Source of the DNA: a virus
Taxonomy: Duplodnaviria > Heunggongvirae > Uroviricota > Caudoviricetes
Length of the DNA stretch: 64,000 nt
IMG/VR virus record: IMGVR_UViG_3300027710_001079
Span: 128,833 to 192,832 of that record
Direction: 5' to 3' (one strand)
Each line of letters starts with the position of its first letter. Position 1 is the first letter of the stretch. The notes beneath the pieces were generated by a model, which ran no database searches, was not told where the DNA came from, and worked only from the letters and a program-made list of their open reading frames with translations. Position numbers and translations under genes: made by a program. Shown one piece after another: positions 6,990 to 23,144 of this stretch.

Positions 6990-8405
6990 TTACAGATCGT
7001 AGCGTGGAACCATGATGGTTTTCATCATGATACCTTCTGGAGTGAATTGATCAGTGTCCGCACTCAAGACCGCTTTCACGATGCTTGGGCTAAAACCACT
7101 AACCAATGCCGCTCCACGTGTGTCATATTTGACAGGCACGTTGTCGCTAGCGTTCAAGTTCCAGAACACAATGTTTGGAACATTGTATCCTGCGTCTGTG
7201 AACTTACGCTTGATCATCTGCATAGCAGAGTCATCGTACTTGGCACAGGCGTCGAACTGCATGTCGCTCAAGATCAACAGCATCTTTGGCATGTCTTCTT
7301 GTGGAACACTACCTTTAACAGCTACACTAAGGATCTTGTCCATAGCCTTAACCAAGTTAGTGTTCATGTCCCACTTAGACTTAACCATTTGTTCTGCCTT
7401 TTGAACCACATTACCCTTCAGAGTCAACAGTTCTGGAGAACCACTGAATGTTAGGAATGTGTCCTTGAACGCACCTTTGTTCTTATCAGCAAGGTACAAG
7501 CCCAAGCTAACAGCAACATCCATACAAGAGAAAGAACTTCCCTTACCTGCTGGTGTGCTCATAGAGCCGCTAACGTCTACCAAAGGTAGGATGCTAGCAT
7601 CGCCAACAAAGTTAGGCAGTGCTTCCCACTGTGCCACAATGTGGTCCAGTTCTGTCTTGCCAAAGTTGACGCCACCGTAGTGGTTAATCACGCCCTTCAA
7701 GACATCGTATGGGTAAACAGCACCAGCATTAACTTTAACACCTGCTTCGCCCTTTGCCAATTTAGCCACGTATTCCGCAAACTTTTCAGTATGGCGGCCG
7801 AAGGCCTTCTTGTAACGTGCTGCCGCAACGCTTGGCACGTGGTTGAAGTTGATGTTGTCCCAGTCGTTGGCACACATTTGTGTTTCAACAACATTAGTCA
7901 ACGCCACAAGACTCTTACGATATTGCTTAGGAGACATACCGAAGAAATCACGGATTTCAGCGGCAATCTTGCCCTTACGAGGAGTCCACTTTGCAGCCAA
8001 GCCATTGCGAGCACGAAGTGCATCGCCTAGCATAGTGAAAGCCTTGGCCTTCAATGCTTTAGACTCGAATACAAACAAGTCGTCCCAACGACCAAGTTCA
8101 GGGATCTTATCCATCAGAACTTCTGCGGCAGCTGGATCATTCTTTTCCAGGTACTTCAAGATGCTACGGAACAGTTCACGTTCACCAGAACCTCCACGGA
8201 CGTCACGAGCCCATTGTGCGACACGCAGGGCTAGATCTTTGTCTTCCACATAAGCGGCAACAAAGTCCTTAGTGATGTCCTTACCACGGCTTGCACCGAT
8301 CTTGAAGAACAGATCAACTACTGCGTTGGCAGTAGATTTACGAGCCTTCATGCCATTGGCAGTACGGGCTTCTTGGTTTTTAACGGCTTCTACAAATGCG
8401 TTCAT
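6990..8405 (-). CDS. rsr: Ro60/Rsr-like ribonucleoprotein (TROVE domain + vWA domain with MIDAS)
   Basis: N-terminus NGMKARKSTANAVVDLFFKIGASRG resembles the Ro60 TROVE entry motif. The C-terminal vWA has a LVDVSGSMS (DxSxS) MIDAS motif. 471 aa. Confidence 0.55.
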   Translation of the reverse strand: MNAFVEAVKNQEARTANGMKARKSTANAVVDLFFKIGASRGKDITKDFVAAYVEDKDLALRVAQWARDVRGGSGERELFRSILKYLEKNDPAAAEVLMDKIPELGRWDDLFVFESKALKAKAFTMLGDALRARNGLAAKWTPRKGKIAAEIRDFFGMSPKQYRKSLVALTNVVETQMCANDWDNINFNHVPSVAAARYKKAFGRHTEKFAEYVAKLAKGEAGVKVNAGAVYPYDVLKGVINHYGGVNFGKTELDHIVAQWEALPNFVGDASILPLVDVSGSMSTPAGKGSSFSCMDVAVSLGLYLADKNKGAFKDTFLTFSGSPELLTLKGNVVQKAEQMVKSKWDMNTNLVKAMDKILSVAVKGSVPQEDMPKMLLILSDMQFDACAKYDDSAMQMIKRKFTDAGYNVPNIVFWNLNASDNVPVKYDTRGAALVSGFSPSIVKAVLSADTDQFTPEGIMMKTIMVPRYDL

Positions 8406-8914
8406 TTTATTTTCCTTCAGGTTACAATTTTAAATATTAAAAAATGCTGTATATAACCTATACAACAGGATGGTCGGAACGGTATTTTATTTTCTGCTTG
8501 CCCCCATCCCCAGTACATCGGTTCAGTTCCACAAGCCTATCGACATTCATGTCGCCTATCTAGTAATTGTGTCTGCTACTAGAAACATAGTATGTCTTTC
8601 CATGCTGTCGTCTATTCCTTGAGCGTCTATTTCTAGAATAGTATTTCTACTATGTCCTGCGACCACTTTCTATAGCTGTAGTTCAGAGTTGATGTTTTAG
8701 TTGCTGTATCCATCCTAGGATATCAAACAGGTTAGTTGTTGACTGCTTTTATTTTACTCAGGCCATCACTCTGAGCTTGTTGGTCTATTTCAATAGACAC
8801 CTTCACAGCACTCGGGCGAACCTCTGTGCTCCAGCGTACTACCATAGGGTCCAACGATTCATAGTTAATGAATGTTGCTGTACCTAACCTTAAAAACTTA
8901 CTGTCTAAGCATTT

Positions 8915-8943
8915 ATTATATAGGATAAATGCTTCTATGTCAA
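8915..8943 (-). promoter_or_regulatory. consensus sigma70 promoter (TTGACA-17-TATAAT) driving a ~500-nt leader and rsr
   Basis: Minus strand reads TTGACAtagaagcatttatcctaTATAAT. -35 at 8938..8943, -10 at 8915..8920, spacer exactly 17. Confidence 0.6.
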
Positions 8944-8974
8944 CACTTTTTTAAACTTTGTTATCCAAAATACT

Positions 8975-9064
8975 TGGCAGTGGGTAAGAGATTCGAACTC
9001 TTGTGTCGCTTTCGCAACCTGCACCTTTCCAAGATGTGCCAATAAACCACTCTGGCAACCCACT
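8975..9064 (-). tRNA. tRNA-Ser: tRNA-Ser(GGA), type II
   Basis: Hand fold. Acceptor AGTGGGT/ACCCACT, 3-bp D stem, anticodon loop TTGGAAA, variable arm GTTGC-GAAA-GCGAC, T loop TTCGAAT, CCA encoded. 90 nt. Confidence 0.65.
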
Positions 9065-9067
9065 ATT

Positions 9068-9289
9068 TTATCGACGTTTTGGAGCTCCGATACGTGAAGC
9101 CTTGTTCCAATCGTAATCAACTCCGTCTGGACACTTGCCATCTTTAACAGAGTCTACTCCAAACATACCACATACTTCAAAATCTGTACCTGCGATAGTT
9201 ACAAACTCGTTCATATGCTTGGCAAGGTTCATTGCTTCAGCTAGTGTAAGCACTTTGAATGTTTCTTCTTTTCCTATTACTTTATACAT
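9068..9289 (-). CDS. hypothetical small protein
   Basis: ORF-track 73 aa between two tRNAs. Confidence 0.3.
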   Translation of the reverse strand: MYKVIGKEETFKVLTLAEAMNLAKHMNEFVTIAGTDFEVCGMFGVDSVKDGKCPDGVDYDWNKASRIGAPKRR

Positions 9290-9334
9290 TGTTAATTTTA
9301 CTTTCTTTTTCTCTCATTACAACAATATCAACAT

Positions 9335-9409
9335 TGGTCCCACCGACAGGAATCGAACCTGTATCTGAGACTTAGGAGGTCCCCGTTCTATCCATTGAAC
9401 TACAGCAGG
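9335..9409 (-). tRNA. tRNA-Arg: tRNA-Arg(CCT)
   Basis: Hand fold. D arm GTTC/GAAC, anticodon loop CTCCTAA, T arm ACAGG-TTCGATT-CCTGT, CCA encoded. 75 nt. Confidence 0.75.
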
Positions 9410-9916
9410 TTACAAAACTCTTTTTAATATTTTCTCTAATTTTAAACTTTCCGATCTTATGCTAATAATATTTTTAAATTGATCTGTAGAATTTACTACG
9501 GTATGCCAGCAATTATATGCATCAAAAATGCAACTGCCATTCTGCATACTCCACTGGTCAACTAATTTTGCATTATTTTCATGTAACAAAGGAATGTTAT
9601 TTTCCTGAAAATTATTATGGAAGGCACTAGTTGTATCAGCTATCTGGTCAAAAATTTCTATTGAAACATTTTCATGACCTATAGGAGACGTTACTAATGA
9701 CCAAATAGCTCCGGTACCATCTAGTCTTTGATCTTTATGTATTATATCCTTTGAGTTTGGGCCTAACCAAATAGAAAGAGTATATACATCATTGATTAAA
9801 TCTTCTAAGCCCAGCATTTTTAAATAAGGTGTAGAATCTACAACACCCCAAAAATTACCAACATTTGGATTTGGATGGAACGAAAATACTCTTTTTGTAG
9901 TTATTGGAATAAAATA
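9410..9916 (-). CDS. hypothetical protein
   Basis: ORF-track 9410..9985. The listed 5' end overlaps the tRNA at 9925..9999, so the start is moved to the internal Met (MYFIPITTKR). Confidence 0.4.
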   Translation of the reverse strand, partial: YFIPITTKRVFSFHPNPNVGNFWGVVDSTPYLKMLGLEDLINDVYTLSIWLGPNSKDIIHKDQRLDGTGAIWSLVTSPIGHENVSIEIFDQIADTTSAFHNNFQENNIPLLHENNAKLVDQWSMQNGSCIFDAYNCWHTVVNSTDQFKNIISIRSESLKLEKILKRVL

Positions 9917-9924
9917 CATAATTT

Positions 9925-9999
9925 TGGCCGGCCATGCAGGAATCGAACCCACACCGCTTGTTTCGAAGACAAGCATGATATCCATTTCACTAATGGCCG
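9925..9999 (-). tRNA. tRNA-Arg: tRNA-Arg(TCG)
   Basis: Hand fold. Acceptor CGGCCAT/ATGGCCG, perfect anticodon stem CTTGT/ACAAG, loop CTTCGAA, T loop TTCGATT, CCA encoded. Confidence 0.7.
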
Positions 10000-10117
10000 C
10001 AGTTGGTGCTCCAGGCTGGTAACGATCCAGCTTCTCATCCTTACCAAGGAAGTGTACTGCCTTTATACTACAGGAGCAAATCTTTTTCTTTTAAATATAC
10101 TTTAATTATACAACATT

Positions 10118-10738
10118 ATGGAAATTCAGTCAAGGATAGATGGTAAACAGATCGTTGTAAATTTACAACAGAATGTGTCTTACGGATTAATGATGTCGGG
10201 CGGGTTAGATAGTGCTGTGTTACTTTATCTAATGCTTAAAGCCTGTCCTACTGCAAGTATACAGCCGTTTTATATTGCCAAGCATGACGGATCGTATGCT
10301 TACATAGACGGCATTATTGAATACATTAACCTATTGTTCAATATTCGTATACCCCAACCTATTAAAGTAGGCTCCCCAGACATACATCATACACAGATCA
10401 ATCAAGCAGGTATTAGGCAGGTGTTATTTAAACACCCCGAAATAGAAAAGTTGTTTATTGGTATTAACCAAAATCCGCCACAACCTTGGGGAGATCCTAA
10501 ATGGGAATTTCCCAATAGGCCCACCTTTAACAGTAATCTCAGAATAGAGATGCCTTTTATGATGCTATACAAGACACATATAGTTGATCTTGTTAATCAA
10601 TTTGAAATTCAGGCACTCGCAAATCTTACGCACACCTGCACCGAACAGGTTACCGGAAGATGTATGAAATGTTTCCAATGTAGCGAACGAGCTTGGGCAT
10701 ACCAAACGCTCGGATTAATAGACCACGGTAAACTTTAA
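10118..10738 (+). CDS. queC: QueC-like PP-loop ATPase (7-cyano-7-deazaguanine synthase family)
   Basis: MMSGGLDSAV PP-loop motif. C-terminal RCMKCFQCSERAWA matches the QueC zinc-binding CxxCxxC motif. Confidence 0.6.
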   Translation: MEIQSRIDGKQIVVNLQQNVSYGLMMSGGLDSAVLLYLMLKACPTASIQPFYIAKHDGSYAYIDGIIEYINLLFNIRIPQPIKVGSPDIHHTQINQAGIRQVLFKHPEIEKLFIGINQNPPQPWGDPKWEFPNRPTFNSNLRIEMPFMMLYKTHIVDLVNQFEIQALANLTHTCTEQVTGRCMKCFQCSERAWAYQTLGLIDHGKL

Positions 10739-11610
10739 GTAGGAGTATCGTAACTCCACTTCCAAGTACGACTATCTTCTAAACCCAATTGTTCACATAG
10801 CTCGTCAGTAAACGTTCCGTCAACTCTAAGTGTATATCGAAATACTGGTTCAGGGTCAACTCCGTGGTAGTCACGGTTATTGAAGAAGTAACTACGAGCG
10901 TCACTATCTAGATAAATCTTTTTCTTAGCCTTTTCGTCCCAAATAAAACTAGGGCGGCTCCCACTTGCAAAAAATAAATTAATATTGTGATCACTGTGTT
11001 CAGCCATAACACTGTCTCGATGTGTTACCACTCCGGCATTTGGATAAGTTGTAAAAAATAAAACTCGACCAATTGTCTTAAACGGCAGTTGATCAATGTA
11101 CTTAACTACCTTGGGGAACAACTTTGCAGCCTCGGTCCATTGCCCGAAGTCTTGTGTCTTTTTCCCAAAATCATTTTTCTTTAAGTACAATGCAAAGAAC
11201 CATGGAATAACTGCACCCATGGCGAAATAAGCATATTTGTACATTGCCTGCATTTCTTTTCCGGGACTACGATCGATAACTTCTTTAAGAGCTTCTCGAT
11301 GTACGCCTGTTGGATCGTACTTGTGTAGTTGTTGAAGCATCTCACTCCAACAATCGTGTCCACCAAACCTAGCAACTTCCTCTGGAGGTAATGCTCCGTA
11401 GGTCATCCCCATTTTATATTCTTCACTCAGTGCAAGACCTTTGCAACATTCGATATGAAGTTCCTGGTCTTGACTGTGATCAATATATTTGTCCATTGAC
11501 AAAATAGGGAGTCGATTCTTACCGACTCCCTTAATGCCATATTCTGTATAAGGATATGATACTATATTCTGCGTATGAAACTTTAAGGATGTGTGTTGCT
11601 GATCTTTCAT
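10735..11610 (-). CDS. cupin/2OG-Fe(II)-oxygenase-like protein (aspartyl beta-hydroxylase-like), putative
   Basis: H-x-D...H arrangement (VVTHRDSVMAEHSDH) in the C-terminal half. Weak. Confidence 0.3.
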   Translation of the reverse strand: MKDQQHTSLKFHTQNIVSYPYTEYGIKGVGKNRLPILSMDKYIDHSQDQELHIECCKGLALSEEYKMGMTYGALPPEEVARFGGHDCWSEMLQQLHKYDPTGVHREALKEVIDRSPGKEMQAMYKYAYFAMGAVIPWFFALYLKKNDFGKKTQDFGQWTEAAKLFPKVVKYIDQLPFKTIGRVLFFTTYPNAGVVTHRDSVMAEHSDHNINLFFASGSRPSFIWDEKAKKKIYLDSDARSYFFNNRDYHGVDPEPVFRYTLRVDGTFTDELCEQLGLEDSRTWKWSYDTPT

Positions 11611-12077
11611 TAGTCTACACTCCTAAAAGTTCGCCAATCATCAATGTTTGGTTTTTCATCTACATCATATGTCCAGCCTAACGCCTTCATCATGCGATGT
11701 TTGACTAATAGATTAGGACTACGGAATCGTCCTGTATCTTCAAAGCCCATCATTACACCAACTTCGCATACTGCACCCGAACGGCAAATGCCAGCAAAGC
11801 AATGCACTACAACATTCATTCGATTCTCTTTTGCGTGTTGCAGTAGGCGAACAAGCTCTGCGGCTTGCTCATGACTGCACTTCATAGCTTCTTCCAGTAC
11901 TTCGTCCTTTTCTTCTACATCCAAGAACTCAAAGTTATGTTGTTCCTTGAACTTGTGGGCAGGAGTAGGACGCCAGCTTGCTGGATCAACAATACTGATC
12001 AGCATCGAATTCTCACCTGCTTCGTGATGAAACCTCTTAGGGATATCATCAGCGGCTACGTTTTCAATCCATGGCAT
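11610..12077 (-). CDS. dual-specificity/tyrosine protein phosphatase
   Basis: HCFAGICRSGAV is the CX5R P-loop of PTP/DSP phosphatases. Confidence 0.7.
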   Translation of the reverse strand: MPWIENVAADDIPKRFHHEAGENSMLISIVDPASWRPTPAHKFKEQHNFEFLDVEEKDEVLEEAMKCSHEQAAELVRLLQHAKENRMNVVVHCFAGICRSGAVCEVGVMMGFEDTGRFRSPNLLVKHRMMKALGWTYDVDEKPNIDDWRTFRSVD

Positions 12078-12093
12078 TTCAATACTCCAAATG

Positions 12094-12273
12094 TTAATTA
12101 GCTCTTAATCGCTCAATTTCGTTTGCGGCTTCTTCTAAAAGGTTTGCAATTTTGTCGGGCTTACCTTCTTCTACTGATTTACGACCTTGAATCTGTCGTC
12201 GAATTTCTGCCCGCTTACGCAAACGGAACACAAGGCTCTGTTCTGCTACAGGTAAATGGCTTTCATCTATCAT
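12094..12273 (-). CDS. hypothetical small coiled-coil protein (59 aa, below ORF-track cutoff)
   Basis: Hand translation MIDESHLPVAEQSLVFRLRKRAEIRRQIQGRKSVEEGKPDKIANLLEEAANEIERLRAN. Fills the minus-strand gap between the phosphatase and the HD hydrolase. Confidence 0.3.
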   Translation of the reverse strand: MIDESHLPVAEQSLVFRLRKRAEIRRQIQGRKSVEEGKPDKIANLLEEAANEIERLRAN

Positions 12274-12382
12274 ACAGTCTCCACAATATAGTATCCCGAA
12301 TTAGGGTAGCGTTCTTGCAACCATTCCAACATGCCCGGTTCATTGGGCAGTTGGATTGAGTTATATTTGTTAGTAATGTACA

Positions 12383-12919
12383 TCATGCACCTACAAACTC
12401 ACTAGCACGAGCATGTAAGCCCGCATCGCCCTTGGTCATCACTGCCAACGCCATACGCTTTTCTTCTAAGTAAGTCTTAGCAAAGGCAGGATCGTGTGCC
12501 ACAATGCTACGACTGTTAGAGATGAAATCGGCTAACTTGATAGTCTGTGCTTCAGCTGGTGCAGATGCAGTGTGTTCACGATCAATTGCCTTACGAACTG
12601 CACGGTTGCCGTCTTCTGGCTTTGACACATCAGTTAACCAACTTACTAATCCTGCAACTTCGGGACCGAAGTTCATGTGGATGTCAGTTAAGGTAACCCC
12701 AGTGTCTTCCACAGTGTCGTGTAACCAAGCAGCCGCAACCATTTCCGGAGTACTATCCGGAACCTCTGCTACGATCCTTGCAACTTCTGCAGGGTGAACA
12801 AAGTAGGGTTCGCCGGTATACTTACGCTTTTGCCCGACCGCACTGTGAGCAGCGATGGCAAAAACTTGGGCCTTGTGTACCAAGTCCATTCCAGTTAATT
12901 CCATAGTAAATCCTTCCAT
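12383..12919 (-). CDS. HD-domain (p)ppGpp hydrolase (SpoT/Mesh1-type small alarmone hydrolase)
   Basis: HSAVGQKRKYTGEPYFVHPAEVA...LHDTVEDT are the RelA/SpoT hydrolase-domain signature motifs (H, HD, ED). Confidence 0.7.
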   Translation of the reverse strand: MEGFTMELTGMDLVHKAQVFAIAAHSAVGQKRKYTGEPYFVHPAEVARIVAEVPDSTPEMVAAAWLHDTVEDTGVTLTDIHMNFGPEVAGLVSWLTDVSKPEDGNRAVRKAIDREHTASAPAEAQTIKLADFISNSRSIVAHDPAFAKTYLEEKRMALAVMTKGDAGLHARASEFVGA

Positions 12920-12945
12920 GCTACTCTCCTTGTTAATAAGTGTAT

Positions 12946-12974
12946 ATTATAGCATGGTTTTACCATACTGTCAA
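12946..12974 (-). promoter_or_regulatory. consensus sigma70 promoter (TTGACA-17-TATAAT)
   Basis: Minus strand reads TTGACAgtatggtaaaaccatgcTATAAT. -35 at 12969..12974, -10 at 12946..12951. Sits upstream of the HD hydrolase start. Confidence 0.6.
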
Positions 12975-13201
12975 CCGGAAGTTTTCAGCACTTTCTGTAT
13001 AGTAATTTCTACTACTAAATGCTTACGAAGAAGCATGAACTTTTTAAACTTGGCTTCTACTTCAGATTGTATATATTCGTCATGATAGGGCACAGTAGCA
13101 ACATCTTCGTAGGGCTCGTCATTTTCATCGAGTGCTATAAATTTCAATGTTACCATGCCCTGCTCGGGCTCTTTAAACAATTTGGCAAGTTTGTTAAACA
13201 T
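12971..13201 (-). CDS. hypothetical protein
   Basis: ORF-track 76 aa. Confidence 0.35.
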   Translation of the reverse strand: MFNKLAKLFKEPEQGMVTLKFIALDENDEPYEDVATVPYHDEYIQSEVEAKFKKFMLLRKHLVVEITIQKVLKTSG

Positions 13202-13209
13202 GCAAATAT

Positions 13210-13758
13210 TTAGTGATGACTTTTGATTTCATTGTCCTTGATCAAGCGGATTGCACGATCCATCGAGATAACGATTTCACCGGTTGAGTCCATACCTACA
13301 TCCATACAACGATATTTTTCCATACCTGTAGTTCCTCCGTGTAAGTGCCCGTGAAAGTGTAATGCTCCCCTGTGCATTTGATCCCATTCAAAAATAGGAT
13401 AGTGAAACATCACAATCTTGTGTCCATCATAGGTAATGTCCAAGTATTCGTGTACTTCTGCAAACGCACTACGGAATGTTTGATCCATCAATGTTTTGCG
13501 ATCATGATTACCACGTACCAAAATCTTTGTACCGTACAAACGATTCACCATACGTCCAGCATCACTGCCGCTCATGAACGCTACATCACCTAAGATGTAT
13601 ACAAGATCTTCCGGAGACACTTTAGCGTTCCATTCTTCCGCCATTGCATTGTTCATGTATGCAACATCGTTATTAAAACGTGCTCGTGTCTGTGGACAGA
13701 AACTCATAATGTTCTTGTGTCCAAAGTGTAAGTCGCTAGTAATCCATGTTTTCATCAA
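13210..13758 (-). CDS. calcineurin-like metallophosphoesterase (Ser/Thr phosphatase family)
   Basis: DLHFGH...GDV...GNHD metallophosphatase motifs. 182 aa. Confidence 0.65.
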   Translation of the reverse strand: MMKTWITSDLHFGHKNIMSFCPQTRARFNNDVAYMNNAMAEEWNAKVSPEDLVYILGDVAFMSGSDAGRMVNRLYGTKILVRGNHDRKTLMDQTFRSAFAEVHEYLDITYDGHKIVMFHYPIFEWDQMHRGALHFHGHLHGGTTGMEKYRCMDVGMDSTGEIVISMDRAIRLIKDNEIKSHH

Positions 13759-13928
13759 TACGTCTCTTTTATAATATCATATAGCTCAGCAGGCCACGCA
13801 GCCTTAAATTCTTCAGTCTTAACATATTCATTGTAGGATTTGGCTTCAAAGAAGACTTTCTTGAATACGCTCATATGCTTACCCTTAGGCAAGATTGTGA
13901 GATAGATTGATTTTGCTTTTCCTGCCAT
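13755..13928 (-). CDS. hypothetical small protein (57 aa, below ORF-track cutoff)
   Basis: Hand translation MAGKAKSIYLTILPKGKHMSVFKKVFFEAKSYNEYVKTEEFKAAWPAELYDIIKETY. Its stop overlaps the next start (ATGA-type coupling). Confidence 0.3.
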   Translation of the reverse strand: MAGKAKSIYLTILPKGKHMSVFKKVFFEAKSYNEYVKTEEFKAAWPAELYDIIKETY

Positions 13929-13956
13929 GATGTTTCCTTAAGTGTAGTAATTATAT

Positions 13957-13985
13957 ATTATACAGTCAAAAGAAAGCCCTGTCAA
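13957..13985 (-). promoter_or_regulatory. consensus sigma70 promoter with the -35 in a terminator-like hairpin
   Basis: Minus strand reads TTGACAgggctttcttttgactgTATAAT. Hairpin gccctgcTTGACAgggc overlaps the -35. Confidence 0.6.
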
Positions 13986-13997
13986 GCAGGGCAGTAA

Positions 13998-14468
13998 TTA
14001 CTGTGCAAACCAAACTTGCGTGAAGCCTTCTTCTACAGTGGGCTCTTCCCAGCTGGCAATCATGCTGGCAACAACATGCTCGGGAATAATCTTACCATCA
14101 TCCCATCGGCTCTCTAATCGCCGCATGAGCTCCTTATGCTCGGGTGTCTTAAACACCACAGCAATATGTTCATAGTTAGGCAACATGTTAAACTTGCGAG
14201 TACGACTTATTAAAGTAGTACTGGTTTGATCCCAGATGATGTCTTTGCCTGCTTCCCGGGCTTCTACTACTTTGTCAGCCATCAACTTTACAGCGGTTGG
14301 CATGTATTCTACAAATACTTCTGAATAGGTCTTACCTTGTTCTCGAGCATAGGCTTCAACAAAATCGTCAGTAGAAACTACTACACAGTCAGGAGCCCAA
14401 TCTTGTTCTTTAATCCAAGTGCTCTTACCTGAAGCAGGCACTCCGACCAATTGATAACATTTTGCCAT
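13998..14468 (-). CDS. P-loop NTPase/kinase (AAA_33 / polynucleotide-kinase-like)
   Basis: LVGVPASGKST Walker A motif. 156 aa. Confidence 0.5.
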   Translation of the reverse strand: MAKCYQLVGVPASGKSTWIKEQDWAPDCVVVSTDDFVEAYAREQGKTYSEVFVEYMPTAVKLMADKVVEAREAGKDIIWDQTSTTLISRTRKFNMLPNYEHIAVVFKTPEHKELMRRLESRWDDGKIIPEHVVASMIASWEEPTVEEGFTQVWFAQ

Positions 14469-16690: not shown

Positions 16691-16918
16691 TCAATAATGT
16701 TCGCTCTTTTTAGGAGGCTTACGAAGTTTTTCCAAATAATTACGACCTACTTTACCTGCTTCAATTTCTCGAAGTGCAGTAACGTTAAATCCGTTATTAC
16801 AAGTAACCATAGGCATATGCCCACGCTTTAGTTCTCTTGCACGAATTGATGCAATTAGTACTAGATCAAAACGATTACCAACCATCTCTACTGCTGCCTG
16901 TGACGTTAAACGTGCCAT
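16691..16918 (-). CDS. rpoZ: DNA-directed RNA polymerase omega subunit homolog
   Basis: [33 protein letters not shown] aligns closely with E. coli RpoZ [33 protein letters not shown]. Confidence 0.7.
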   Translation of the reverse strand: [75 protein letters not shown]

Positions 16919-16951
16919 GTGTTTCCTTGAAGTTAAAGTTAAAATTAAACA

Positions 16952-17065
16952 GGTTCTCTTTTTTACGTGCTACCACTACACCAACGTGAAGACCAACTCA
17001 CGCCTAGGATTCGAACCTAGCCCCTCTTTTTTCAAGAAAGATTATTTTGATTGCTGAAAAGAACC
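16952..17065 (-). ncRNA. yrlA-like: Y-RNA-like tRNA mimic (YrlA-type candidate) #1
   Basis: Minus-strand order: closing stem GGTTCTTTT...AAAAGAGAACC; T arm CTAGG-TTCGAAT-CCTAG; 7-bp acceptor-like stem GCGTGAG/TTCACGT capped by loop TTGGTC instead of open ends; D arm GTGT-AGTGGTA-GCAC. No anticodon arm. Confidence 0.5.
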
Positions 17066-17231
17066 TAAAGGTCAAAACTTACCGAGTAATAAATCTTACT
17101 AGCCGCAACCAGTAATATTTAATTCCTCTAAATGCCGGGAAATCAAATTCTATAAATGATACCGGCTCTTTGGGAATATTGCCGTATGCTTTATCAAGTG
17201 TGTCTTTCGCATTCATATAACATTCCTTTGT

Positions 17232-17708: not shown

Positions 17709-17778
17709 CAAAATACAACAGGCTTCGCTTTTTTTCATTTACAGTGAAATTTTTATTTGCTGAAAGAAGCCTAAAAAT

Positions 17779-17852: not shown

Positions 17853-18367
17853 ATTAAATCTATTTAGTAAAACACACTAACACCGCTGGCAAAGTAATTA
17901 CATTACTTGATACGAGTACCTAATGTGTTTTAATAAAGTGTCTAGCTACCTACACCACATAGGCCCTAAACTGAGCGGTTTACTCTGTCTCACGTTATCC
18001 CTTATGGTTGGACTATTCGTCTACCTGTGATATTTTCCGTGCTCCTGAAATGAAGCCGTGTAGTAGATCTCACGCACTAAGTTCGTCGTTATGGCAAGGA
18101 AACCACTCGCCCACTTTAATAACGGTCAAGTGTAACCGGGTTTTTAACAGGTTAATACTAGTTTAACGTCCTAGCAGACAGCCATTTTTTTATTGCCGTA
18201 ATTAACCTAAATAGGTTTTTGAGAGACTGACTATCTTTCTTAAGGACTCATCAGGTTGTCTCGAATGAAAGAGTTTATGCAGACCTTGTACAATTCTACT
18301 GGTGTGTCATGCTCAAGAATAGGGCACTAGAATACAAGGGACTCATCTCACCGTCTATCTCAAAACT

Positions 18368-18459
18368 TGGTACCCCCGGCGGGAGTCGAACCCACACTAA
18401 CCAATTATCTGTTGCATACGGGATATAAATCCGCTGTTCTACCATTAAACTACAGGGGC
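18368..18459 (-). tRNA. tRNA, long-variable-arm (type II-like) gene; anticodon loop reads TTTATAT (TAT?), assignment uncertain
   Basis: Acceptor GCCCCTG/CGGGGGT, D arm GTTT-AATGGTA-GAAC, T arm GTGGG-TTCGACT-CCCGC, CCA encoded. There is a ~20-nt variable region. The anticodon stem has an A:C mismatch. 92 nt. Confidence 0.45.
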
Positions 18460-18538
18460 ATAAAATAACAGGATCAACTTTTTATGTTTCAGTATAAATG
18501 AAATTTTTATTATGTTTGCTGAACTGATCCTAAAAACT

Positions 18539-19371: not shown

Positions 19372-19400
19372 ATTATACAGTCTATTTAACAGTGTGTCAA
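19372..19400 (-). promoter_or_regulatory. consensus sigma70 promoter inside the tRNA array
   Basis: Minus strand reads TTGACAcactgttaaatagactgTATAAT. -35 at 19395..19400, -10 at 19372..19377. Points toward the tRNA-Leu/Arg/Asn block. Confidence 0.55.
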
Positions 19401-19809: not shown

Positions 19810-19860
19810 ATATGGTAGGGGCACAGGGAATCGAACCCTGATAGACCGGATCTTTGAAGT
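19810..19860 (-). pseudogene. tRNA 3'-half fragment (T arm + acceptor 3' strand + CCA, no matching 5' half)
   Basis: CAGGG-TTCGATT-CCCTG-TGCCCCT-A-CCA is present. No D arm or complementary acceptor 5' strand lies upstream. Confidence 0.4.
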
Positions 19861-19891
19861 CTTAGATTTTATTTGCTGAGTTTAGCAATAA

Positions 19892-20443: not shown

Positions 20444-21019
20444 TTACTTAACTCCTAACAATCGTTTAGCTCTTGAATAGTTATTACCCTTTGCCGCAAT
20501 ACCTGCCTTAAGCAAACCTTGCCTGATATTATCAGTTTCTTTTAGGCATTGTAGTAAGAACTCATCCGAGACTTCATTTACTCCATTCCTAGATGGTTTG
20601 TTTCTTCCTCGCCAAGTATCAGTAATACTATGGCAGTTCGGACACAATCCTTCTAAGTTTTCTCTACTATTATTAGTAGTGTTGCCATCTTTGTGTTCTA
20701 GTTCAAGCGGAATCTTAAACCCCTGCCATTCACTTACACCGCATCTATTACAGCAATGATTTTGTTCTTCAAACACCCTGCGGCGTCTGTTTTCAGAACC
20801 CAACTCGGCAAACGGTGTAGCATTGTATTTGTCTAATCGTGCTTGCCTAATGTTTGCTTTCCATTGTTCTGGATTTGCCCTAACTGCTGTTCGTCCTGCC
20901 AACTTAGCAGAACGACTTTCATTTATATCTTTACTCCACTCTCTGCTATTGGCACAAGAGCGTGAGCAGTATAAGCCTGCTTTTTCGTGTTCTTTGTTAC
21001 ACTTAGGACATTGTTTCAT
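20444..21019 (-). CDS. HNH homing endonuclease
   Basis: Zinc-finger-like CPKC...CSRSC pair, then ELEHKDGN...NLEGLCPNCH HNH motif. Embedded in the tRNA array. Confidence 0.7.
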   Translation of the reverse strand: MKQCPKCNKEHEKAGLYCSRSCANSREWSKDINESRSAKLAGRTAVRANPEQWKANIRQARLDKYNATPFAELGSENRRRRVFEEQNHCCNRCGVSEWQGFKIPLELEHKDGNTTNNSRENLEGLCPNCHSITDTWRGRNKPSRNGVNEVSDEFLLQCLKETDNIRQGLLKAGIAAKGNNYSRAKRLLGVK

Positions 21020-21156
21020 ATCGTACCTTGTTAAAATATAAAAGTATTTATCTAAGTACGATATAAAACAACATTCTAATGGTGAGGGTGTAGGGTACTG
21101 ACCCCTATTTTACGAGTTAAAAGCTCGTTACTTCACCTTAAAGTTTCACCCCCATA

Positions 21157-21339: not shown

Positions 21340-21414
21340 TGGCGGTACCAGGGGGTAACGATCCCCCTCCTCAGCAGTGACAGTGCTGTGTGCGTCCATG
21401 AACACCTTGGAACC
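21340..21414 (-). tRNA. tRNA-Asp: tRNA-Asp(GTC)-like with non-canonical T loop (ATCGTTA)
   Basis: Acceptor GGTTCCA/TGGTACC, D arm GTGT-TCATGGAC-GCAC, perfect anticodon stem CAGCA/TGCTG, loop CTGTCAC, CCA encoded. The T loop deviates from TTCRANN and may be degenerate. Confidence 0.45.
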
Positions 21415-21419
21415 TAAAT

Positions 21420-21506
21420 TGGTGGAGACGACTGGAGTCGAACCAGTAGTGCCTTTCGGGCGGCGGATTTACAGTCCACTGGGGTTACCAATTTTCCTAC
21501 ATCTCC
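21420..21506 (-). tRNA. tRNA-Tyr: tRNA-Tyr(GTA), type II
   Basis: Hand fold. Anticodon stem GTGGA/TCCGC, loop CTGTAAA, variable arm CGCCCGAAAGGC, T arm ACTGG-TTCGACT-CCAGT, CCA encoded. 87 nt. Confidence 0.7.
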
Positions 21507-21628: not shown

Positions 21629-21700
21629 TACCCGAAGCAAGATTTGAACTTGCGACCAACGGCTTATCAAGCCGCTGCTCTACCACTGAGCTATCCGGGT
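21626..21700 (-). tRNA. tRNA-Ile: tRNA-Ile(GAT)
   Basis: Hand fold. D arm GCTC-AGTGGTA-GAGC, anticodon loop TTGATAA, T arm GCAAG-TTCAAAT-CTTGC, CCA encoded. Confidence 0.8.
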
Positions 21701-21832
21701 AAACTTTTGATTTAACTTTTTAAAGAACGTTTGTTAATTTCTTAACATGTGTATATTATAGCAAAGTTTTGCCACTTTGTCAAGTTCTTTTTGTGTTGTA
21801 TTTTTACAACATATTTGGCACCCGTTACGGAT

Positions 21833-22486
21833 TTAAACCTTTATAATTCTGCCCTTACTCCACCCATTTGGAATATCATCAGACTTTTTAATTTTTTTAT
21901 TTTCTATGCCGTTAGTAATCCACATAGTTCCAAACTGTGAGCCTTTTTCACCTTTACCTCTCCCAGTTCTTTGCCATGTTAATTTCTTCTTAGCAATTGC
22001 CTCTGGAGAATTAGCTACTGACAACGCAGTCCAGTAATTTGGATTTTTTACAGAAGAGTTTCCAAGTTTACCTAATTGGCTCCGTTCTTCAGGAGTTAAT
22101 TGTGCCATTCTTGATTTTCCGCCCTTCGATGACTCGTTAGGAGTTAACTTAAAATTTTTACTATGCTTATTGATATAATCAAATCCGCCGTAGCCTCCTC
22201 GTCTTTTATTGTAAACATCTGTTCTTAATAAAAATTCTTCGTTTACAATTTCTTTTTCTCGATTAAACATAGACTCTGAAGTATCGAATGTTTCTAATAT
22301 TCTTTTGGAAAAATTTTCAATTCCGAACTCTTTATATGCTTTATGAAGTTCTGAACCAGACCCCATATAACCGTCATCCATATTTTTAGTTTTATGGACT
22401 CCAACATAAATCATATTGTTTATGTTGTTTCTAATTTCGTACAAATAGTAGTATCTCATAAAACTATTTATACTTTGTGTGGGCAA
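21833..22486 (-). CDS. GIY-YIG homing endonuclease
   Basis: N-terminal YYLYEIRN...MIYVGV GIY-YIG motif, then RRGGYGG. Embedded in the tRNA array. Confidence 0.65.
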   Translation of the reverse strand: MPTQSINSFMRYYYLYEIRNNINNMIYVGVHKTKNMDDGYMGSGSELHKAYKEFGIENFSKRILETFDTSESMFNREKEIVNEEFLLRTDVYNKRRGGYGGFDYINKHSKNFKLTPNESSKGGKSRMAQLTPEERSQLGKLGNSSVKNPNYWTALSVANSPEAIAKKKLTWQRTGRGKGEKGSQFGTMWITNGIENKKIKKSDDIPNGWSKGRIIKV

Positions 22487-22568: not shown

Positions 22569-22574
22569 TATAAT

Positions 22575-22649
22575 TGGTAGTTCCTACTGGGATCGAACCA
22601 GTGACCTTCACAATGTCAATGTGATATTCTACCGCTGAAATAAGGAACT
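22575..22649 (-). tRNA. tRNA-Val: tRNA-Val(GAC)
   Basis: Hand fold. Perfect acceptor AGTTCCT/AGGAACT, perfect anticodon stem TCACA/TGTGA, loop TTGACAT, T arm CACTGG-TTCGATC-CCAGT, CCA encoded. Confidence 0.8.
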
Positions 22650-22655
22650 GTTGTT

Positions 22656-22774
22656 TGGTGGTGACCCCTGGATTCGAACCAGGATCTCGTCCTTATGAAT
22701 GGAATGAAGTAGTTGCTGTATTGTATCCTTGCCAGGATCGCTTTCTACGTGTGCTACCGTTACACCAAGTCACC
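22656..22774 (-). tRNA. 119-nt tRNA with a ~45-nt insertion between D arm and T arm (possible intron or giant variable region)
   Basis: Acceptor GGTGACT/GGTCACC, D arm GTGT-AACGGTA-GCAC, T arm CCTGG-TTCGAAT-CCAGG, CCA encoded. The intervening 66 nt cannot be folded into a single anticodon arm plus normal variable loop. Confidence 0.4.
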
Positions 22775-22775
22775 G

Positions 22776-22853
22776 TGGTACCCTAGGTCGGATTCGAACC
22801 GACACGATTCTCCTTTTGAGAGAGACGCCTCATTCCAATTGGGCTACTAGGGC
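22776..22853 (-). tRNA. tRNA (anticodon loop CTCAAAA, CAA = Leu by anticodon, but short variable arm)
   Basis: Acceptor GCCCTAG/CTAGGGT, 3-bp D stem with long D loop, anticodon stem TCTCT/GGAGA, T arm GTCGG-TTCGAAT-CCGAC, CCA encoded. Confidence 0.5.
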
Positions 22854-22861
22854 ATAAAAAT

Positions 22862-22935
22862 TGGTGCGGGGTAGGAGAATCGAACTCCTGCTTAAACGTT
22901 GGCAACGTCTGGTTCTACCATTTAACTAACCACGC
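22862..22935 (-). tRNA. tRNA-Gly: tRNA-Gly(GCC), second copy
   Basis: Hand fold. Anticodon stem AGACG/CGTTT, loop TTGCCAA, T arm AGGAG-TTCGATT-CTCCT, CCA encoded. Confidence 0.7.
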
Positions 22936-22941
22936 ATTATT

Positions 22942-23019
22942 TGGAATCTGGGGTGAGATTTGAACTCACGGTTTTACGGATTTGCAATCCATTGCATTGG
23001 GCCACTCTGCCACCCAGAC
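22942..23019 (-). tRNA. tRNA-Cys: tRNA-Cys(GCA)
   Basis: Hand fold. Anticodon stem ATGGA/TCCGT, loop TTGCAAA, T arm GTGAG-TTCAAAT-CTCAC, CCA encoded. Confidence 0.7.
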
Positions 23020-23030
23020 ATAATAAAACA

Positions 23031-23144
23031 GGATACTTTTTTTCGATGGCTTGTAAGCCATTGCTCTACCATTGAGCGAATCATTCCATCAGGAATAATG
23101 TTGGAATCGAACCAACGTGTCGTTAGACATTGCTGTAAGTATCC
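23031..23144 (-). ncRNA. yrlA-like: Y-RNA-like tRNA mimic (YrlA-type candidate) #2
   Basis: Minus-strand order: 8-bp closing stem GGATACTT/AAGTATCC; T arm GTTGG-TTCGATT-CCAAC; 7-bp acceptor-like stem ATTATTC/GAATGAT capped by loop CTGATG; D arm GCTC-AATGGTA-GAGC; extra hairpin ATGGC-TTACAA-GCCAT where the anticodon arm would be. Same permuted architecture as element #1. Confidence 0.5.

What the first reader, a model, noticed from the sequence alone, without database searches (positions are those of the whole stretch)
6990..23144. Ro60/Rsr homolog plus two permuted tRNA-mimic (YrlA-like) Y-RNA candidates embedded in a phage tRNA array
The 471-aa protein at 6990..8405 has a TROVE-like N-terminus and a vWA/MIDAS C-terminus, as in Ro60/Rsr. 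In the same transcriptional orientation, at 16952..17065 and 23031..23144, two about 115-nt elements share a non-tRNA arrangement. A closing stem encloses a canonical T arm, a 7-bp acceptor-like helix capped by a 6-nt loop, a D arm with an AGTGGTA/AATGGTA loop, and no anticodon arm. Bacterial and mycobacteriophage YrlA Y RNAs have exactly this domain logic: a Ro-binding stem plus a tRNA-like module (Chen et al. 2013/2014). tRNAscan-type tools would probably miss them because D and T arms are in permuted order.
Basis: partly seen in the sequence, partly recalled or inferred. Interest (0 to 1): 0.9.

Follow-up and report, generated by a model that had tools for sequence, protein, structure and literature searches.

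The report
Phage Ro60-like protein with tRNA-mimic RNAs
A freshwater T4-like phage encodes a ring-shaped Ro60-like RNA-binding protein and about a dozen small RNAs that share one conserved "handle" (a short stem plus ACAGCAA) joined to pieces of tRNA; the same protein-RNA pairing recurs in hundreds of phages, and the RNA family does not appear to have been defined before.

Summary

- Both elements carry an anticodon-arm-like hairpin, so they are complete circularly permuted cloverleaves.
- They are not YrlA by Rfam criteria (26 bits against a cut-off of 69, and no GNCGAA motif).

They are two of about twelve RNAs in the window sharing a module: (U)AGG-stem, NNN, ACAGCAA, cargo, A-run, stem', CUGUU. 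Cargoes range from a lone anticodon stem-loop mimic to a tRNA-like RNA with a CCA end.

A covariance model of the module hit only the gene strand: 168 to 0 in 81 phage loci and 48 to 0 in 80 bacterial/archaeal loci. It often hit where no tRNA gene is present, and gave no hit in T5.

A 38%-identical homologue, Bas63 gp130, is a published counter-defence protein.

The module also resembles Dictyostelium Class I RNAs. That link could not be tested here.

Protein-RNA binding and function are inferred, not shown.

The parts
6990..8405 (-). 471-aa Ro60-like protein: helical-repeat ring plus vWA/MIDAS domain. Pfam DUF2828 + DUF7788; PHROG 850 'RNA-binding protein'.
16947..17068 (-). E1: module RNA carrying a circularly permuted tRNA-like cloverleaf. 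Order: closing stem, ACAGCAA-type motif (UCAGCAA), anticodon-stem-loop-like hairpin, T arm, 7-bp acceptor helix with 6-nt loop, D arm, A-run, stem', CUGUU.
   Evidence: Sequence. MFE fold z -2.77. Covariation. Found by module model R1, which was not trained on it: 43.2 bits, E 5.5e-8. Orthologues in L002, L015, L043, L074.
23026..23147 (-). E2: module RNA of the same kind. Here the anticodon-arm-like hairpin (AUGGC-UUACAAG-GCCAU) follows the D arm, and a 4-bp hairpin precedes the T arm. It sits flush between tRNA-Trp and tRNA-Cys.
   Evidence: Sequence. MFE fold z -5.38. Covariation. R1 36.5 bits, E 2.3e-6. Rfam YrlA 26.3 bits, below the gathering score. tRNA neighbours.
24456..24522 (-). Minimal module RNA (about 62 nt). 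Its cargo is one hairpin with the anticodon-like loop CUUUUAA.
   Evidence: (66.2 bits). Rfam Dicty_Class_I_RNA 26.7 bits, below the gathering score.
24054..24121 (-). Minimal module RNA (about 63 nt).
   Evidence: (57.1 bits).
18466..18533 (-). Minimal module RNA (about 63 nt), read by eye as a UUUCA/UGAAA stem with the 7-nt loop UUUAUAC; this was not recovered by the MFE fold or by the automated hairpin scan.
   Evidence: (63.6 bits).
18145..18210 (-). Minimal module RNA with a variant motif (ACGGCAA). Its orthologue in L002 has ACAGCAA.
   Evidence: (35.4 bits).
17716..17774 (-). Minimal module RNA (about 54 nt). Its hairpin loop is CUGUAAA.
   Evidence: (63.6 bits). Rfam Dicty_Class_I_RNA 30.9 bits, below the gathering score.
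22657..22775 (-). tRNA-like RNA with normal tRNA ends: acceptor stem GGUGACU/GGUCACC, then A and an encoded CCA. The module is closed into a hairpin (AUCC-UGGCAA-GGAU) followed by ACAGCAA, inserted between the D arm and an anticodon-like hairpin. It is the circular permutation of the E1 design.
   Evidence: Sequence. Conserved with covarying acceptor stems in L008, L014, L022, L041, L047. Not called by ARAGORN or Rfam. Fold z only -1.35, so this part is tentative.
8725..8892 (-). Long module RNA (about 165 nt). Its cargo is not tRNA-like. It is the first RNA downstream of a perfect sigma-70 promoter.
   Evidence: Promoter at 8943..8915. No Rfam match.
8463..8718 (-). Long module RNA (about 255 nt). 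It lies between the previous RNA and the gene. A similar RNA occurs in L077.
8415..8461 (-). Degenerate mini module (ACAGCAU) abutting the ribosome-binding site of the Ro60-like gene. In most relatives a canonical ~60-nt module RNA occupies this position. It may be a leader or feedback element.
   Evidence: R1 20.9 bits, E 0.014. Sequence. Relatives have hits at about 9930-9990 just before the gene start at 10001.
8915..8943 (-). Perfect sigma-70-type promoter (TTGACA-17-TATAAT) driving the two long module RNAs, the mini module and the gene.
   Evidence: 12 of 12 matches.

Best explanation
The window is from a freshwater T4-like (Kyanoviridae-related) phage.

PROPOSED SYSTEM
- The gene at 8405..6990 encodes a Ro60-fold protein of the DUF2828/DUF7788 family.
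- E1 and E2 belong to that protein's own class of Y-RNA-like partners.
- Each RNA has a conserved handle: a 6-8 bp terminal helix starting (U)AGG, then 2-3 nt, an invariant single-stranded (A)CAGCAA, then the cargo, an A-rich run, the 3' strand of the helix, and CUGU(U).
- The cargo imitates tRNA. It can be a whole permuted cloverleaf (E1, E2), a tRNA-like body with CCA ends, or just an anticodon stem-loop.

PROPOSED MECHANISM
- The RNAs are cut out of polycistronic tRNA-array transcripts by the tRNA-processing nucleases.
- The protein binds the handle, as Ro60 binds the terminal helix of Y RNA.
- The ribonucleoprotein then presents tRNA-like surfaces that recruit or sequester tRNA-recognising factors: tRNA-targeting defence nucleases, exoribonucleases or repair enzymes. 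This protects the phage's translation capacity and counters host defence.

SHOWN HERE
- The Ro60 fold.
- The RNA structures and their covariation.
- The shared module.
- Strict same-strand linkage of module and gene across very distant (pro)phages.

INFERRED
- Physical binding.
- The processing route.
- The decoy/tether function.
For: PROTEIN FOLD.

RNA STRUCTURE: (E1/E2 type). For the terminal stem of 50 minimal RNAs, one search gives 94.8% paired, 6 of 8 pairs compensatory, score 0.416 against 0.131.

E1 AND E2 SHARE THE MODULE: a model built only from minimal RNAs detects them at E 5.5e-8 and 2.3e-6.

LINKAGE OF MODULE AND GENE
- 168 module hits in 81 phage loci, all on the gene strand. Nearly every locus has one just upstream of the start codon.
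- 48 hits in 80 bacterial/archaeal loci, all on the gene strand. In 16 of the 31 loci with hits there is no tRNA gene at all.
- Module RNAs lie next to the gene in mycobacteriophage Krypton555, Shigella Sf14, Listeria LP-124, Campylobacter NCTC12673, Ralstonia RSP15, Bacillus Thrax3 and E. coli Bas63.
- None was found in the first 50 kb of T5, which includes its tRNA array.

tRNA MIMICRY OF THE CARGO: 29 of 50 minimal RNAs have a stem of at least 4 bp (mostly 5) with a 7-nt loop carrying U33 and R37. Shuffles give 2.3.

GENE CONTEXT: polynucleotide-kinase-like, metallophosphoesterase, HD and PTP-type phosphatase genes lie inside the array. RtcB lies 1.3 kb from the gene in Listeria phage LP-124.

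LITERATURE
- Bas63 gp130 (38% identical) counters the 'ppl' defence system (PMC11482910).
- In Listeria phage CKA15 there are three very abundant non-coding transcripts within 2 kb upstream of the homologue (PMC12282133).
- Canonical phage Ro60 binds adjacent Y-like RNAs and PNPase (PMC12135203).
Against: - No binding, expression or processing data exist for this phage.
- All loci were fetched through the protein, so the reverse test (does every module have the gene?) was not done. T5 is the only negative control.
- Bas63 gp130 alone, expressed from a plasmid or inserted into T7, rescues T7 from ppl. So at least that activity needs no phage module RNA.
- No module was found within 4 kb of the gene in Vibrio phage D483.
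- The cargoes of the two longest RNAs are not tRNA-like.
- The 'anticodons' of the mimics show no clear match to known nuclease targets.
- At the sequence level the link to TROVE is marginal (E 0.008).
- The structure model is of medium confidence (pLDDT 72.8).
Confidence: 0.7

Rival explanations
1. The module is punctuation for transcript processing or stability in tRNA arrays, for example a recognition site for RNase E, RNase III or a phage nuclease. On this view it is unrelated to the Ro60-like protein, and the tRNA-like parts are by-products of array evolution.
For: - E1 and E2 have no promoter of their own and sit between tRNAs.
- The conserved flanks UUAGG and CCUGUU could be cleavage sites.
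- Bas63 gp130 works without the RNAs in T7.
Against: - The module follows the gene in 16 loci with no tRNA gene and in Krypton555, which has a single tRNA 1.2 kb upstream of the gene.
- It is absent from the T5 array.
- The single-stranded ACAGCAA is invariant from actinobacterial to archaeal-associated loci, where the host nucleases differ.
Confidence: 0.12
2. E1 and E2 are genuine members of the YrlA family, the partners of a canonical Rsr. They are merely divergent, so nothing beyond Chen et al. 2014 is present.
For: - Same order of T arm, capped acceptor helix and D arm inside a terminal stem.
- YrlA is the best Rfam match for E2 (26.3 bits), for L053 (28.5 bits) and for the mycobacteriophage element (38.3 bits).
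Against: - All scores are far below the gathering score of 69, and E1 gives no YrlA hit.
- The matches cover the tRNA-like part only.
- The Ro-binding GNCGAA motif is replaced by ACAGCAA.
- The protein is DUF2828, not TROVE.
- Most family members have no YrlA-like cargo at all.
- The mycobacteriophages carrying this protein are 66-76 kb. None of the mycobacteriophage records sampled in the spread listing is the roughly 155-kb type to which I believe ET08, the phage studied in 2014, belongs (that attribution is from my own knowledge, not checked here).
Confidence: 0.08
3. E1 and E2 are permuted tRNA genes or decaying tRNA pseudogenes. Either they mature into working tRNAs by circularisation and cleavage in the acceptor loop, or they are dead debris.
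For: - Every cloverleaf arm is present.
- Some relatives carry CCA after the 3' acceptor strand (L049 and L086).
- The window also has a non-permuted version with a CCA end.
Against: - Debris would not show 20 of 24 compensatory pairs or an invariant non-tRNA module.
- E1 and E2 have 6-nt and 4-nt acceptor loops with no CCA.
- The module would remain inserted in the anticodon/variable region of any 'mature' product.
- The anticodon-like loops vary freely among orthologues (UGA, GUA, UAG).
- No tRNA-splicing endonuclease or RNA ligase domain was detected among the 16 proteins encoded between about 6.0 and 22.5 kb that were scanned; the rest of the window was not scanned.
Confidence: 0.05
4. The module is mainly a cis-acting leader through which the protein controls its own translation. 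The distant copies are then duplicated leaders without a function in trans.
For: - A module copy lies 10-70 nt upstream of the start codon in almost every relative.
- In the window a degenerate copy abuts the ribosome-binding site.
Against: - Most copies are kilobases away, flanked by tRNAs, and carry elaborate conserved cargo.
- In mycobacteriophage and some cyanobacterial loci the RNAs lie downstream of the gene.
- Abundant discrete non-coding RNAs are reported in Listeria phage CKA15.
Confidence: 0.05

Closest known systems
Ro60/Rsr with YrlA-type Y RNAs (Chen et al. 2013, 2014; Rfam RF02553)
   Same: - Ring-plus-vWA/MIDAS protein encoded on the same strand as its RNAs.
- The RNA is a terminal helix with a conserved motif on its 5' side, plus a tRNA-like module in the order T arm, capped acceptor helix, D arm.
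   Different: - The protein is Pfam DUF2828/DUF7788, not TROVE.
- The RNA motif is ACAGCAA, not GNCGAA.
- There are many RNAs per genome (about 12 here) with interchangeable cargoes.
- An anticodon arm is present.
- E1 and E2 lie 8.5 and 14.6 kb from the gene, not within 4 kb.
Thermus phage phiLo phiRo60 with Yrl1/Yrl2 (PMC12135203; PDB 9KOP, 9L5Y)
   Same: - A phage-encoded Ro60-fold protein with adjacent upstream small RNAs.
   Different: - phiRo60 is a TROVE-domain protein and its RNAs carry the CGAA motif.
- Only 14% identity to the window protein.
- No tRNA-array context is reported.
Escherichia phage Bas63 gp130 (PMC11482910)
   Same: - Full-length homologue: 38% identity, E 2e-98.
- Sits directly upstream of a tRNA array that contains module RNAs.
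- Noted there as Ro60-like.
   Different: - Its published activity (countering the ppl defence system) needs no phage RNA when gp130 is moved into T7.
- The RNAs were only guessed to be hidden among annotated tRNAs; they were not identified.
Dictyostelium Class I RNAs (Rfam RF01414; PMC7919456)
   Same: - Conserved 5' G, a short terminal stem, CUUACAGCAA next to the 5' strand, a variable middle, an A-rich run, and a 3' CUGU.
- Length about 60 nt and GC about 30-40%.
- The Rfam model aligns end to end with four window RNAs (30.9, 26.7, 23.0 and 13.3 bits).
   Different: - All scores are below the gathering score of 41.5, and many phage copies score lower still.
- Class I RNAs are eukaryotic genes with a DUSE promoter.
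- Their known direct binder is the RRM protein Rnp1A.
- No tRNA-like cargo has been described for them.
Circularly permuted tRNA genes (Cyanidioschyzon merolae type) and permuted tmRNA
   Same: The 3' half of the cloverleaf precedes the 5' half, and the acceptor ends are joined by a loop.
   Different: There is no bulge-helix-bulge splicing motif and no evidence of maturation to a tRNA. The break point carries a conserved protein-handle-like module instead.

Membership tests
Ro60 / TROVE (Pfam PF05731) proteins | Significant match to the TROVE domain model | tested here: not met
   Pfam scan to E 0.1 gives DUF7788, DUF2828 and VWA_2 only. The same holds for the mycobacteriophage 'Ro-like' protein. 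A family profile against PDB sequences finds TROVE proteins only at E 0.008, over the MIDAS segment.
Ro60 / TROVE (Pfam PF05731) proteins | Fold: helical-repeat ring followed by a vWA domain | tested here: met
Ro60 / TROVE (Pfam PF05731) proteins | MIDAS motif DxSxS...T...D in the vWA domain | tested here: met
   D277, S279, S281, T349 and D381 are invariant in 13 sequences down to 33% identity.
Ro60 / TROVE (Pfam PF05731) proteins | Binds Y RNA on the outer ring surface and single-stranded RNA ends in the central hole | not testable with these tools
   Needs biochemistry or a structure of the complex.
YrlA (Rfam RF02553) | Score at or above the gathering score of 69 bits | tested here: not met
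   E2 26.3 bits. E1 has no YrlA hit at E up to 10. Relatives score 28.5 and 38.3 bits.
YrlA (Rfam RF02553) | tRNA-like module (T arm, capped acceptor helix, D arm) inside a terminal stem | tested here: met
   MFE folds and covariation: T arm 96% paired, acceptor helix 85%, D arm 100%, terminal stem 93.5%.
YrlA (Rfam RF02553) | Conserved GNCGAA(N0-1)G Ro-binding motif in the terminal helix | tested here: not met
   Read directly from alignments A2 and A4. The invariant element is CAGCAA, following the 5' strand of the helix.
YrlA (Rfam RF02553) | Encoded within about 4 kb of the Ro gene and on the same strand | tested here: inconclusive
   Same strand: yes. E1 and E2 are 8.5 and 14.6 kb upstream. 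Other module RNAs lie 10-490 nt upstream of the gene.
Dictyostelium Class I RNA (Rfam RF01414) | Score at or above the gathering score of 41.5 bits | tested here: not met
   Window RNAs score 30.9, 26.7, 23.0 and 13.3 bits. No hit at E up to 1 in eight further loci.
Dictyostelium Class I RNA (Rfam RF01414) | 5' G, short terminal stem, 11-nt motif with invariant C..CAA, 3' CUGU | tested here: met
   Invariant columns in A2 are the 5' G, CAGCAA and C.GU.
Dictyostelium Class I RNA (Rfam RF01414) | DUSE promoter about 60 nt upstream; dictyostelid genome | tested here: not met
   This is a phage, with sigma-70-type promoters.
tRNA (Rfam RF00005 / ARAGORN) | Canonical cloverleaf in the standard order, scoring at least 29 bits | tested here: not met
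   Not called by ARAGORN or by Rfam at the gathering score. E2 gives only a truncated 23.6-bit match.

The most novel reading that the evidence does not exclude
The ACAGCAA handle may be the universal recognition element of the DUF2828 branch of Ro60-like proteins in all domains of life.

If so, Dictyostelium Class I RNAs would be the eukaryotic Y-RNA-like partners of DUF2828 proteins. Those RNAs have the same 5' G, short stem, CUUACAGCAA, A-run and CUGU. They are abundant, regulate development, and have had no known mechanism since 2004. Similar unnoticed RNAs in plants would fit too: an Arabidopsis candidate with a covariance-model score of 40 sits in the discarded outgroup list of Kjellin et al. 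One candidate protein partner is the uncharacterised DdR-21 pull-down protein DDB_G0281243.

Phage and amoeba RNAs would then be one ancient RNP class. The phage versions would differ by having tRNA parts grafted on.
Probability: 0.2. Interest if true: 0.9.

Novelty: new variant of a known kind. Interest (0 to 1): 0.75.

Why it matters
Ro60-Y RNA particles are a classic but still poorly understood RNA-surveillance system. This window shows a sister system.

HOW WIDE IT IS
- The protein is found in 711 phage records, including Felix O1, P100-like Listeria phages, staphylococcal, campylobacter and KVP40-like vibrio phages and cluster-L-like mycobacteriophages.
- At least 8000 close protein clusters occur in metagenomes.

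WHAT IS NEW
- Its RNA partners can now be recognised by a simple handle.
- This explains the unannotated gaps in many phage tRNA arrays.
- It gives candidate identities for the abundant non-coding RNAs seen in Listeria phage CKA15.
- It supplies the missing RNAs for the counter-defence protein Bas63 gp130.

WHAT IT MAKES TESTABLE
- The modular cargo (anticodon stem-loop only, elbow only, whole permuted cloverleaf, CCA-ended tRNA-like) suggests a programmable display of tRNA surfaces.
- That makes it possible to test whether phages use decoys or tethers against tRNA-directed immunity.
- If the resemblance to Dictyostelium Class I RNAs is homology, it would give a first mechanistic lead for that RNA class.

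Tried and rejected
- Sequence searches of the protein against PDB chains found nothing, either alone or as a shallow profile. Only a diverse profile gave a marginal TROVE hit.
- Near and distant DNA searches of the gene and of E1/E2 against isolate phages found no close relative. The nearest isolate is Synechococcus phage BUCT-ZZ01, at 50% protein identity.
- The AlphaFold-database fold search, which would have shown whether Dictyostelium has this protein, was unavailable.
- Literature and supplement searches for DDB_G0281243, DUF2828, DUF7788 and the InterPro names gave nothing useful.
- Two paper searches were wasted on over-broad terms.
- Rfam at the gathering threshold on seven loci was swamped by tRNAs, so any Class I hits were not visible. 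An E-value run on eight other loci showed no Class I hit. This tempers the Dictyostelium link.
- With filters off, the module model missed the large-cargo RNAs. The default filters, which allow local ends, found E1 and E2.
- I rejected the idea that the mycobacteriophage Y RNAs of Chen 2014 are this same family. The mycobacteriophages carrying this protein are 66-76 kb, and none of the mycobacteriophage records sampled in the spread listing is the roughly 155-kb type to which I believe ET08 belongs (that attribution is from my own knowledge, not checked here).
- I rejected group I intron, tmRNA and RNase P identities for the elements. No Rfam support was found.

Full report
SETTING

Everything of interest lies on the - strand. 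ARAGORN finds 37 tRNA genes between 8975 and 24599, and Rfam adds one more at 21083-21153. The nearest isolate by protein identity is Synechococcus phage BUCT-ZZ01 (Kyanoviridae, 50%). IMG/VR holds 255 relatives of the gene, mostly freshwater contigs. Five perfect sigma-70-type promoters divide the array into transcription units.

THE PROTEIN

The 471-aa ORF at 8405..6990 matches Pfam DUF7788 (1.8e-50) and the C-terminal part of DUF2828 (2e-26). It does not match TROVE. It belongs to PHROG 850, 'RNA-binding protein'.

Sequence searches against PDB chains found nothing. The exception was a marginal hit to TROVE proteins with a diverse profile (E 0.008).

An AlphaFold model (pLDDT 72.8, pTM 0.67) has an all-helical N-terminal two-thirds and an alpha/beta C-terminal third. 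Its three best matches, the only ones covering the full length, are Ro60-family structures:
- Foldseek: 2NVO (Rsr) E 6.8e-7, 9KOP (phiRo60) E 1.2e-6, 9NFA (Ro60) E 7.5e-5.

The MIDAS residues DxSxS...T...D are invariant in homologues down to 33% identity. So the protein has the Ro60 fold but belongs to a separate sequence family. The mycobacteriophage 'Ro-like RNA binding protein' (Krypton555 gp56) belongs to the same family.

tblastn finds the family in 711 phage records. These include Felix O1 itself, KVP40-like vibriophages, P100-like Listeria phages and staphylococcal, enterococcal, campylobacter, Bacillus and rhizobial phages.

THE TWO ELEMENTS

RNAfold returns the proposed architecture as the minimum-free-energy structure for both. 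E1 has z -2.77 and E2 has z -5.38.

I collected 27 distinct homologues, including ones from a mycobacteriophage, a Shigella phage and a Bacillus phage. I then counted pairs for the terminal stem, T arm, acceptor helix and D arm:
- 93.1% of cells pair.
- 20 of 24 pairs show changes on both sides.
- The covariation score is 0.611. Shuffles give 0.175 (0 of 500 reach the observed value) and slid registers give at most 0.124.

The exception is the statement 'no anticodon arm'. E2 has AUGGC-UUACAAG-GCCAU right after the D arm. E1 has a hairpin before the T arm, which I read as 5 bp plus the 7-nt loop CUUGAAA; RNAfold draws it as 8 bp plus a 5-nt loop. Both are therefore complete cloverleaves in circularly permuted order. 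They are opened between the D arm and anticodon arm (E1) or between the anticodon arm and T arm (E2).

THE SHARED MODULE

Rfam in E-value mode gave YrlA for E2 (26.3 bits, gathering score 69). Unexpectedly, it also gave Dicty_Class_I_RNA for both elements, through their termini. That pointed to a shared terminal module:

(U)UAGG-stem, 3 nt, CAGCAA, ..., A-run, stem', CUGUU

A simple scan found the module eight times in the window. All eight are on the - strand and lie between 8.4 and 24.6 kb. The expected number is 0.42.

Four of these are about 55-65-nt RNAs: 24522..24456, 24121..24054, 18533..18466 and 17774..17716. Two are long RNAs (8892..8725 and 8718..8463) lying between a perfect promoter and the Ro60-like gene.

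Fifty minimal RNAs from the window and related loci align cleanly. Their terminal stem is 94.8% paired, with 6 of 8 pairs compensatory.

A covariance model built from these 50 (R1) finds two more copies in the window. One is at 18210..18145, with the variant motif ACGGCAA. The other is a degenerate copy at 8461..8415 that touches the gene's ribosome-binding site. R1 also finds E1 and E2, on which it was not trained, at E 5.5e-8 and 2.3e-6.

CARGO DIVERSITY

In related phages the same module encloses several kinds of cargo:
- permuted cloverleaves;
- D arm, anticodon arm and T arm without an acceptor stem;
- other conserved structures;
- most often, a single hairpin.

That single hairpin is an anticodon stem-loop mimic. 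In 29 of 50 minimal RNAs it has a stem of at least 4 bp (mostly 5) and a 7-nt loop with U33 and R37 (typically CU-NNN-AA). Shuffles give 2.3.

The window also holds the unpermuted counterpart at 22775..22657. Its order is acceptor stem, D arm, the module closed into a hairpin (AUCC-UGGCAA-GGAU) plus ACAGCAA, an anticodon-like hairpin, T arm, acceptor strand, then ACCA. It is conserved with covarying acceptor stems in five relatives.

The connectivity of the RNA chain is therefore free. What is kept is handle plus tRNA parts.

LINKAGE TO THE GENE

- R1 gave 168 hits at E up to 0.01 in 81 phage loci (1.01 Mb). All are on the gene strand. Nearly every locus has one 10-70 nt before the start codon.
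- A scan of species-representative bacterial and archaeal genomes found 220 relatives of the protein.
- In 80 of those loci R1 gave 48 hits, again all on the gene strand.
- Of the 31 loci with hits, 16 have no tRNA gene at all. The module therefore follows the gene, not tRNA arrays.
- Module RNAs flank the gene in Krypton555 (three in tandem just downstream, the middle one with a YrlA-like cargo), and in Sf14, LP-124, NCTC12673, RSP15, Thrax3 and Bas63.
- The first 50 kb of T5, which includes its tRNA array and its stable RNAs of unknown function, gave no hit.
- Vibrio phage D483 had none within 4 kb.

FUNCTION: WHAT IS KNOWN AND WHAT IS INFERRED

Bas63 gp130 is 38% identical to the window protein over its full length. 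It was found by PhageMaP to counter the 'ppl' defence system. It does so even when moved alone into T7. The authors guessed that Y RNAs hide among the tRNA genes (PMC11482910).

In Listeria phage CKA15 the homologue is in the virion proteome, and three very abundant non-coding transcripts lie within 2 kb upstream. These were suggested to be Y RNAs (PMC12282133). Three module RNAs sit in that position in the related phage LP-124.

The canonical TROVE-type phiRo60 of a Thermus phage binds two adjacent CGAA-motif RNAs and host PNPase (PMC12135203).

The window's array also encodes a polynucleotide-kinase-like P-loop protein, a metallophosphoesterase, an HD hydrolase and a PTP-type phosphatase. 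These are typical RNA end-healing activities. LP-124 has RtcB nearby.

I therefore propose a Ro60-like RNP whose RNAs present tRNA surfaces to tRNA-directed enzymes, acting as decoy, tether or repair platform. Binding and function are inference. The T7 transfer result shows that at least one activity of the protein does not need the phage RNAs.

COMPARISON WITH KNOWN FAMILIES

The system works like Ro60-YrlA but fails the membership tests for TROVE (Pfam) and for YrlA (Rfam score and binding motif).

The module is strikingly like Dictyostelium Class I RNAs as described in PMC7919456: a conserved 5' G, a short stem, the 11-nt motif CCUUACAGCAA with invariant C..CAA, a variable middle, and a 3' CUGU whose C pairs with the 5' G. 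Probe sequences in that paper's supplement show GGUGGC-CUUACAGCAAUCAAC and AAGAAUUC-CUUACAGCAA.

The Rfam model aligns end to end with four window RNAs, but always below its gathering score (30.9 bits at best). It misses many relatives. The best E-value is 0.02 after correction for all Rfam families.

Pfam's DUF2828 family includes eukaryotic proteins. The papers that mention it are mostly on plants. Whether dictyostelids have it could not be tested here. One of the four proteins pulled down with DdR-21, DDB_G0281243, is uncharacterised. I treat this link as an open hypothesis with a probability of about 0.2.

VERDICT

The finding is real and more interesting than stated. It is a new variant of the Ro60-Y RNA theme. 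It has its own protein family, its own RNA handle and modular tRNA-mimic cargo. It is widespread in phages, including experimentally tractable ones.

Noticed in passing
window 22657-22775 (-): A tRNA-like RNA with normal acceptor ends and an encoded ACCA. The anticodon region holds the module as a closed hairpin plus ACAGCAA and an anticodon-like hairpin. ARAGORN and Rfam both miss it. It is conserved in five relatives.
   Followed up: partly
window 23690-23890 (-): A conserved, structured RNA of about 200 nt between tRNA-Thr and tRNA-Pro. It has a UUGUAAGU/ACUUACAA closing helix, GUCAGCAAG, a T arm, a GAUCGGAAGAUC hairpin and a long-range GUCAC/GUGAC helix. 20 of 41 predicted pairs are compensatory across 7 phages. 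It has no Rfam match. It may be a large relative of the module family.
   Followed up: partly
window 19813-19840 (-): An orphan T arm plus 3' acceptor strand plus ACCA (CAGGGUUCGAUUCCCUG-UGCCCCU-ACCA). No matching 5' acceptor strand lies nearby. It could be a tRNA fragment or a piece of a split RNA.
   Followed up: partly
window 11610-14468 (-): A run of RNA end-healing-type genes inside the tRNA array: PTP/DSP phosphatase (11610-12077), HD_4 hydrolase (12383-12919), metallophosphoesterase (13210-13758) and a polynucleotide-kinase-like AAA_33 protein (13998-14468). No ligase was recognised.
   Followed up: partly
window 16691-16918 (-): A 75-aa ORF immediately downstream of E1 matches the RNA polymerase Rpb6/omega family (4.9e-13). 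This is unusual for a phage.
   Followed up: no
window 8915-8943, 12946-12974, 13957-13985, 19372-19400, 21755-21783 (-): Five promoters that match TTGACA-17-TATAAT in 12 of 12 positions, all on the - strand. They punctuate the tRNA/RNA array.
   Followed up: no
window 21083-21153 (-); 18368-18459 (-): Rfam calls a tRNA (43.2 bits) at 21083-21153 that ARAGORN misses. ARAGORN's tRNA-Ile(UAU) at 18368-18459 is 92 nt long. It lies directly after a module RNA (18466-18533) whose hairpin loop, read by eye, would carry the same UAU triplet.
   Followed up: no
L015 1064-1460; L079 17829-18179: Related phages encode a two-piece (permuted) tmRNA (Rfam tmRNA_permuted, 119 and 112 bits). The window has only weak tmRNA-like hits (24125-24199 and 21359-21447).
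   Followed up: no
L089 (phage T5) 30284-33949, 40848-41566: The T5 tRNA region is annotated with eight stable RNAs of unknown function, some of them 'tRNA-like'. They do not carry the ACAGCAA module.
   Followed up: partly
window 20444-21019 and 21833-22486 (-); 10118-10738 (+): HNH and GIY-YIG homing-endonuclease-like ORFs are interspersed in the array. There is a QueC-like ORF on the opposite strand.
   Followed up: no
Supplement of bioRxiv 10.1101/2020.04.05.026054 (file 7): The discarded outgroup candidates for Class I RNAs include an Arabidopsis sequence with covariance-model score 40: UGUUUUC-AUUACAGCAAUC...GAAAACUG. Plants are among the eukaryotes in which DUF2828 proteins are reported.
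   Followed up: no
Literature: PMC12282133: The Listeria phage CKA15 homologue (CKA15_055) was detected in purified virions at 57% sequence coverage. This hints that the protein may be packaged.
   Followed up: no
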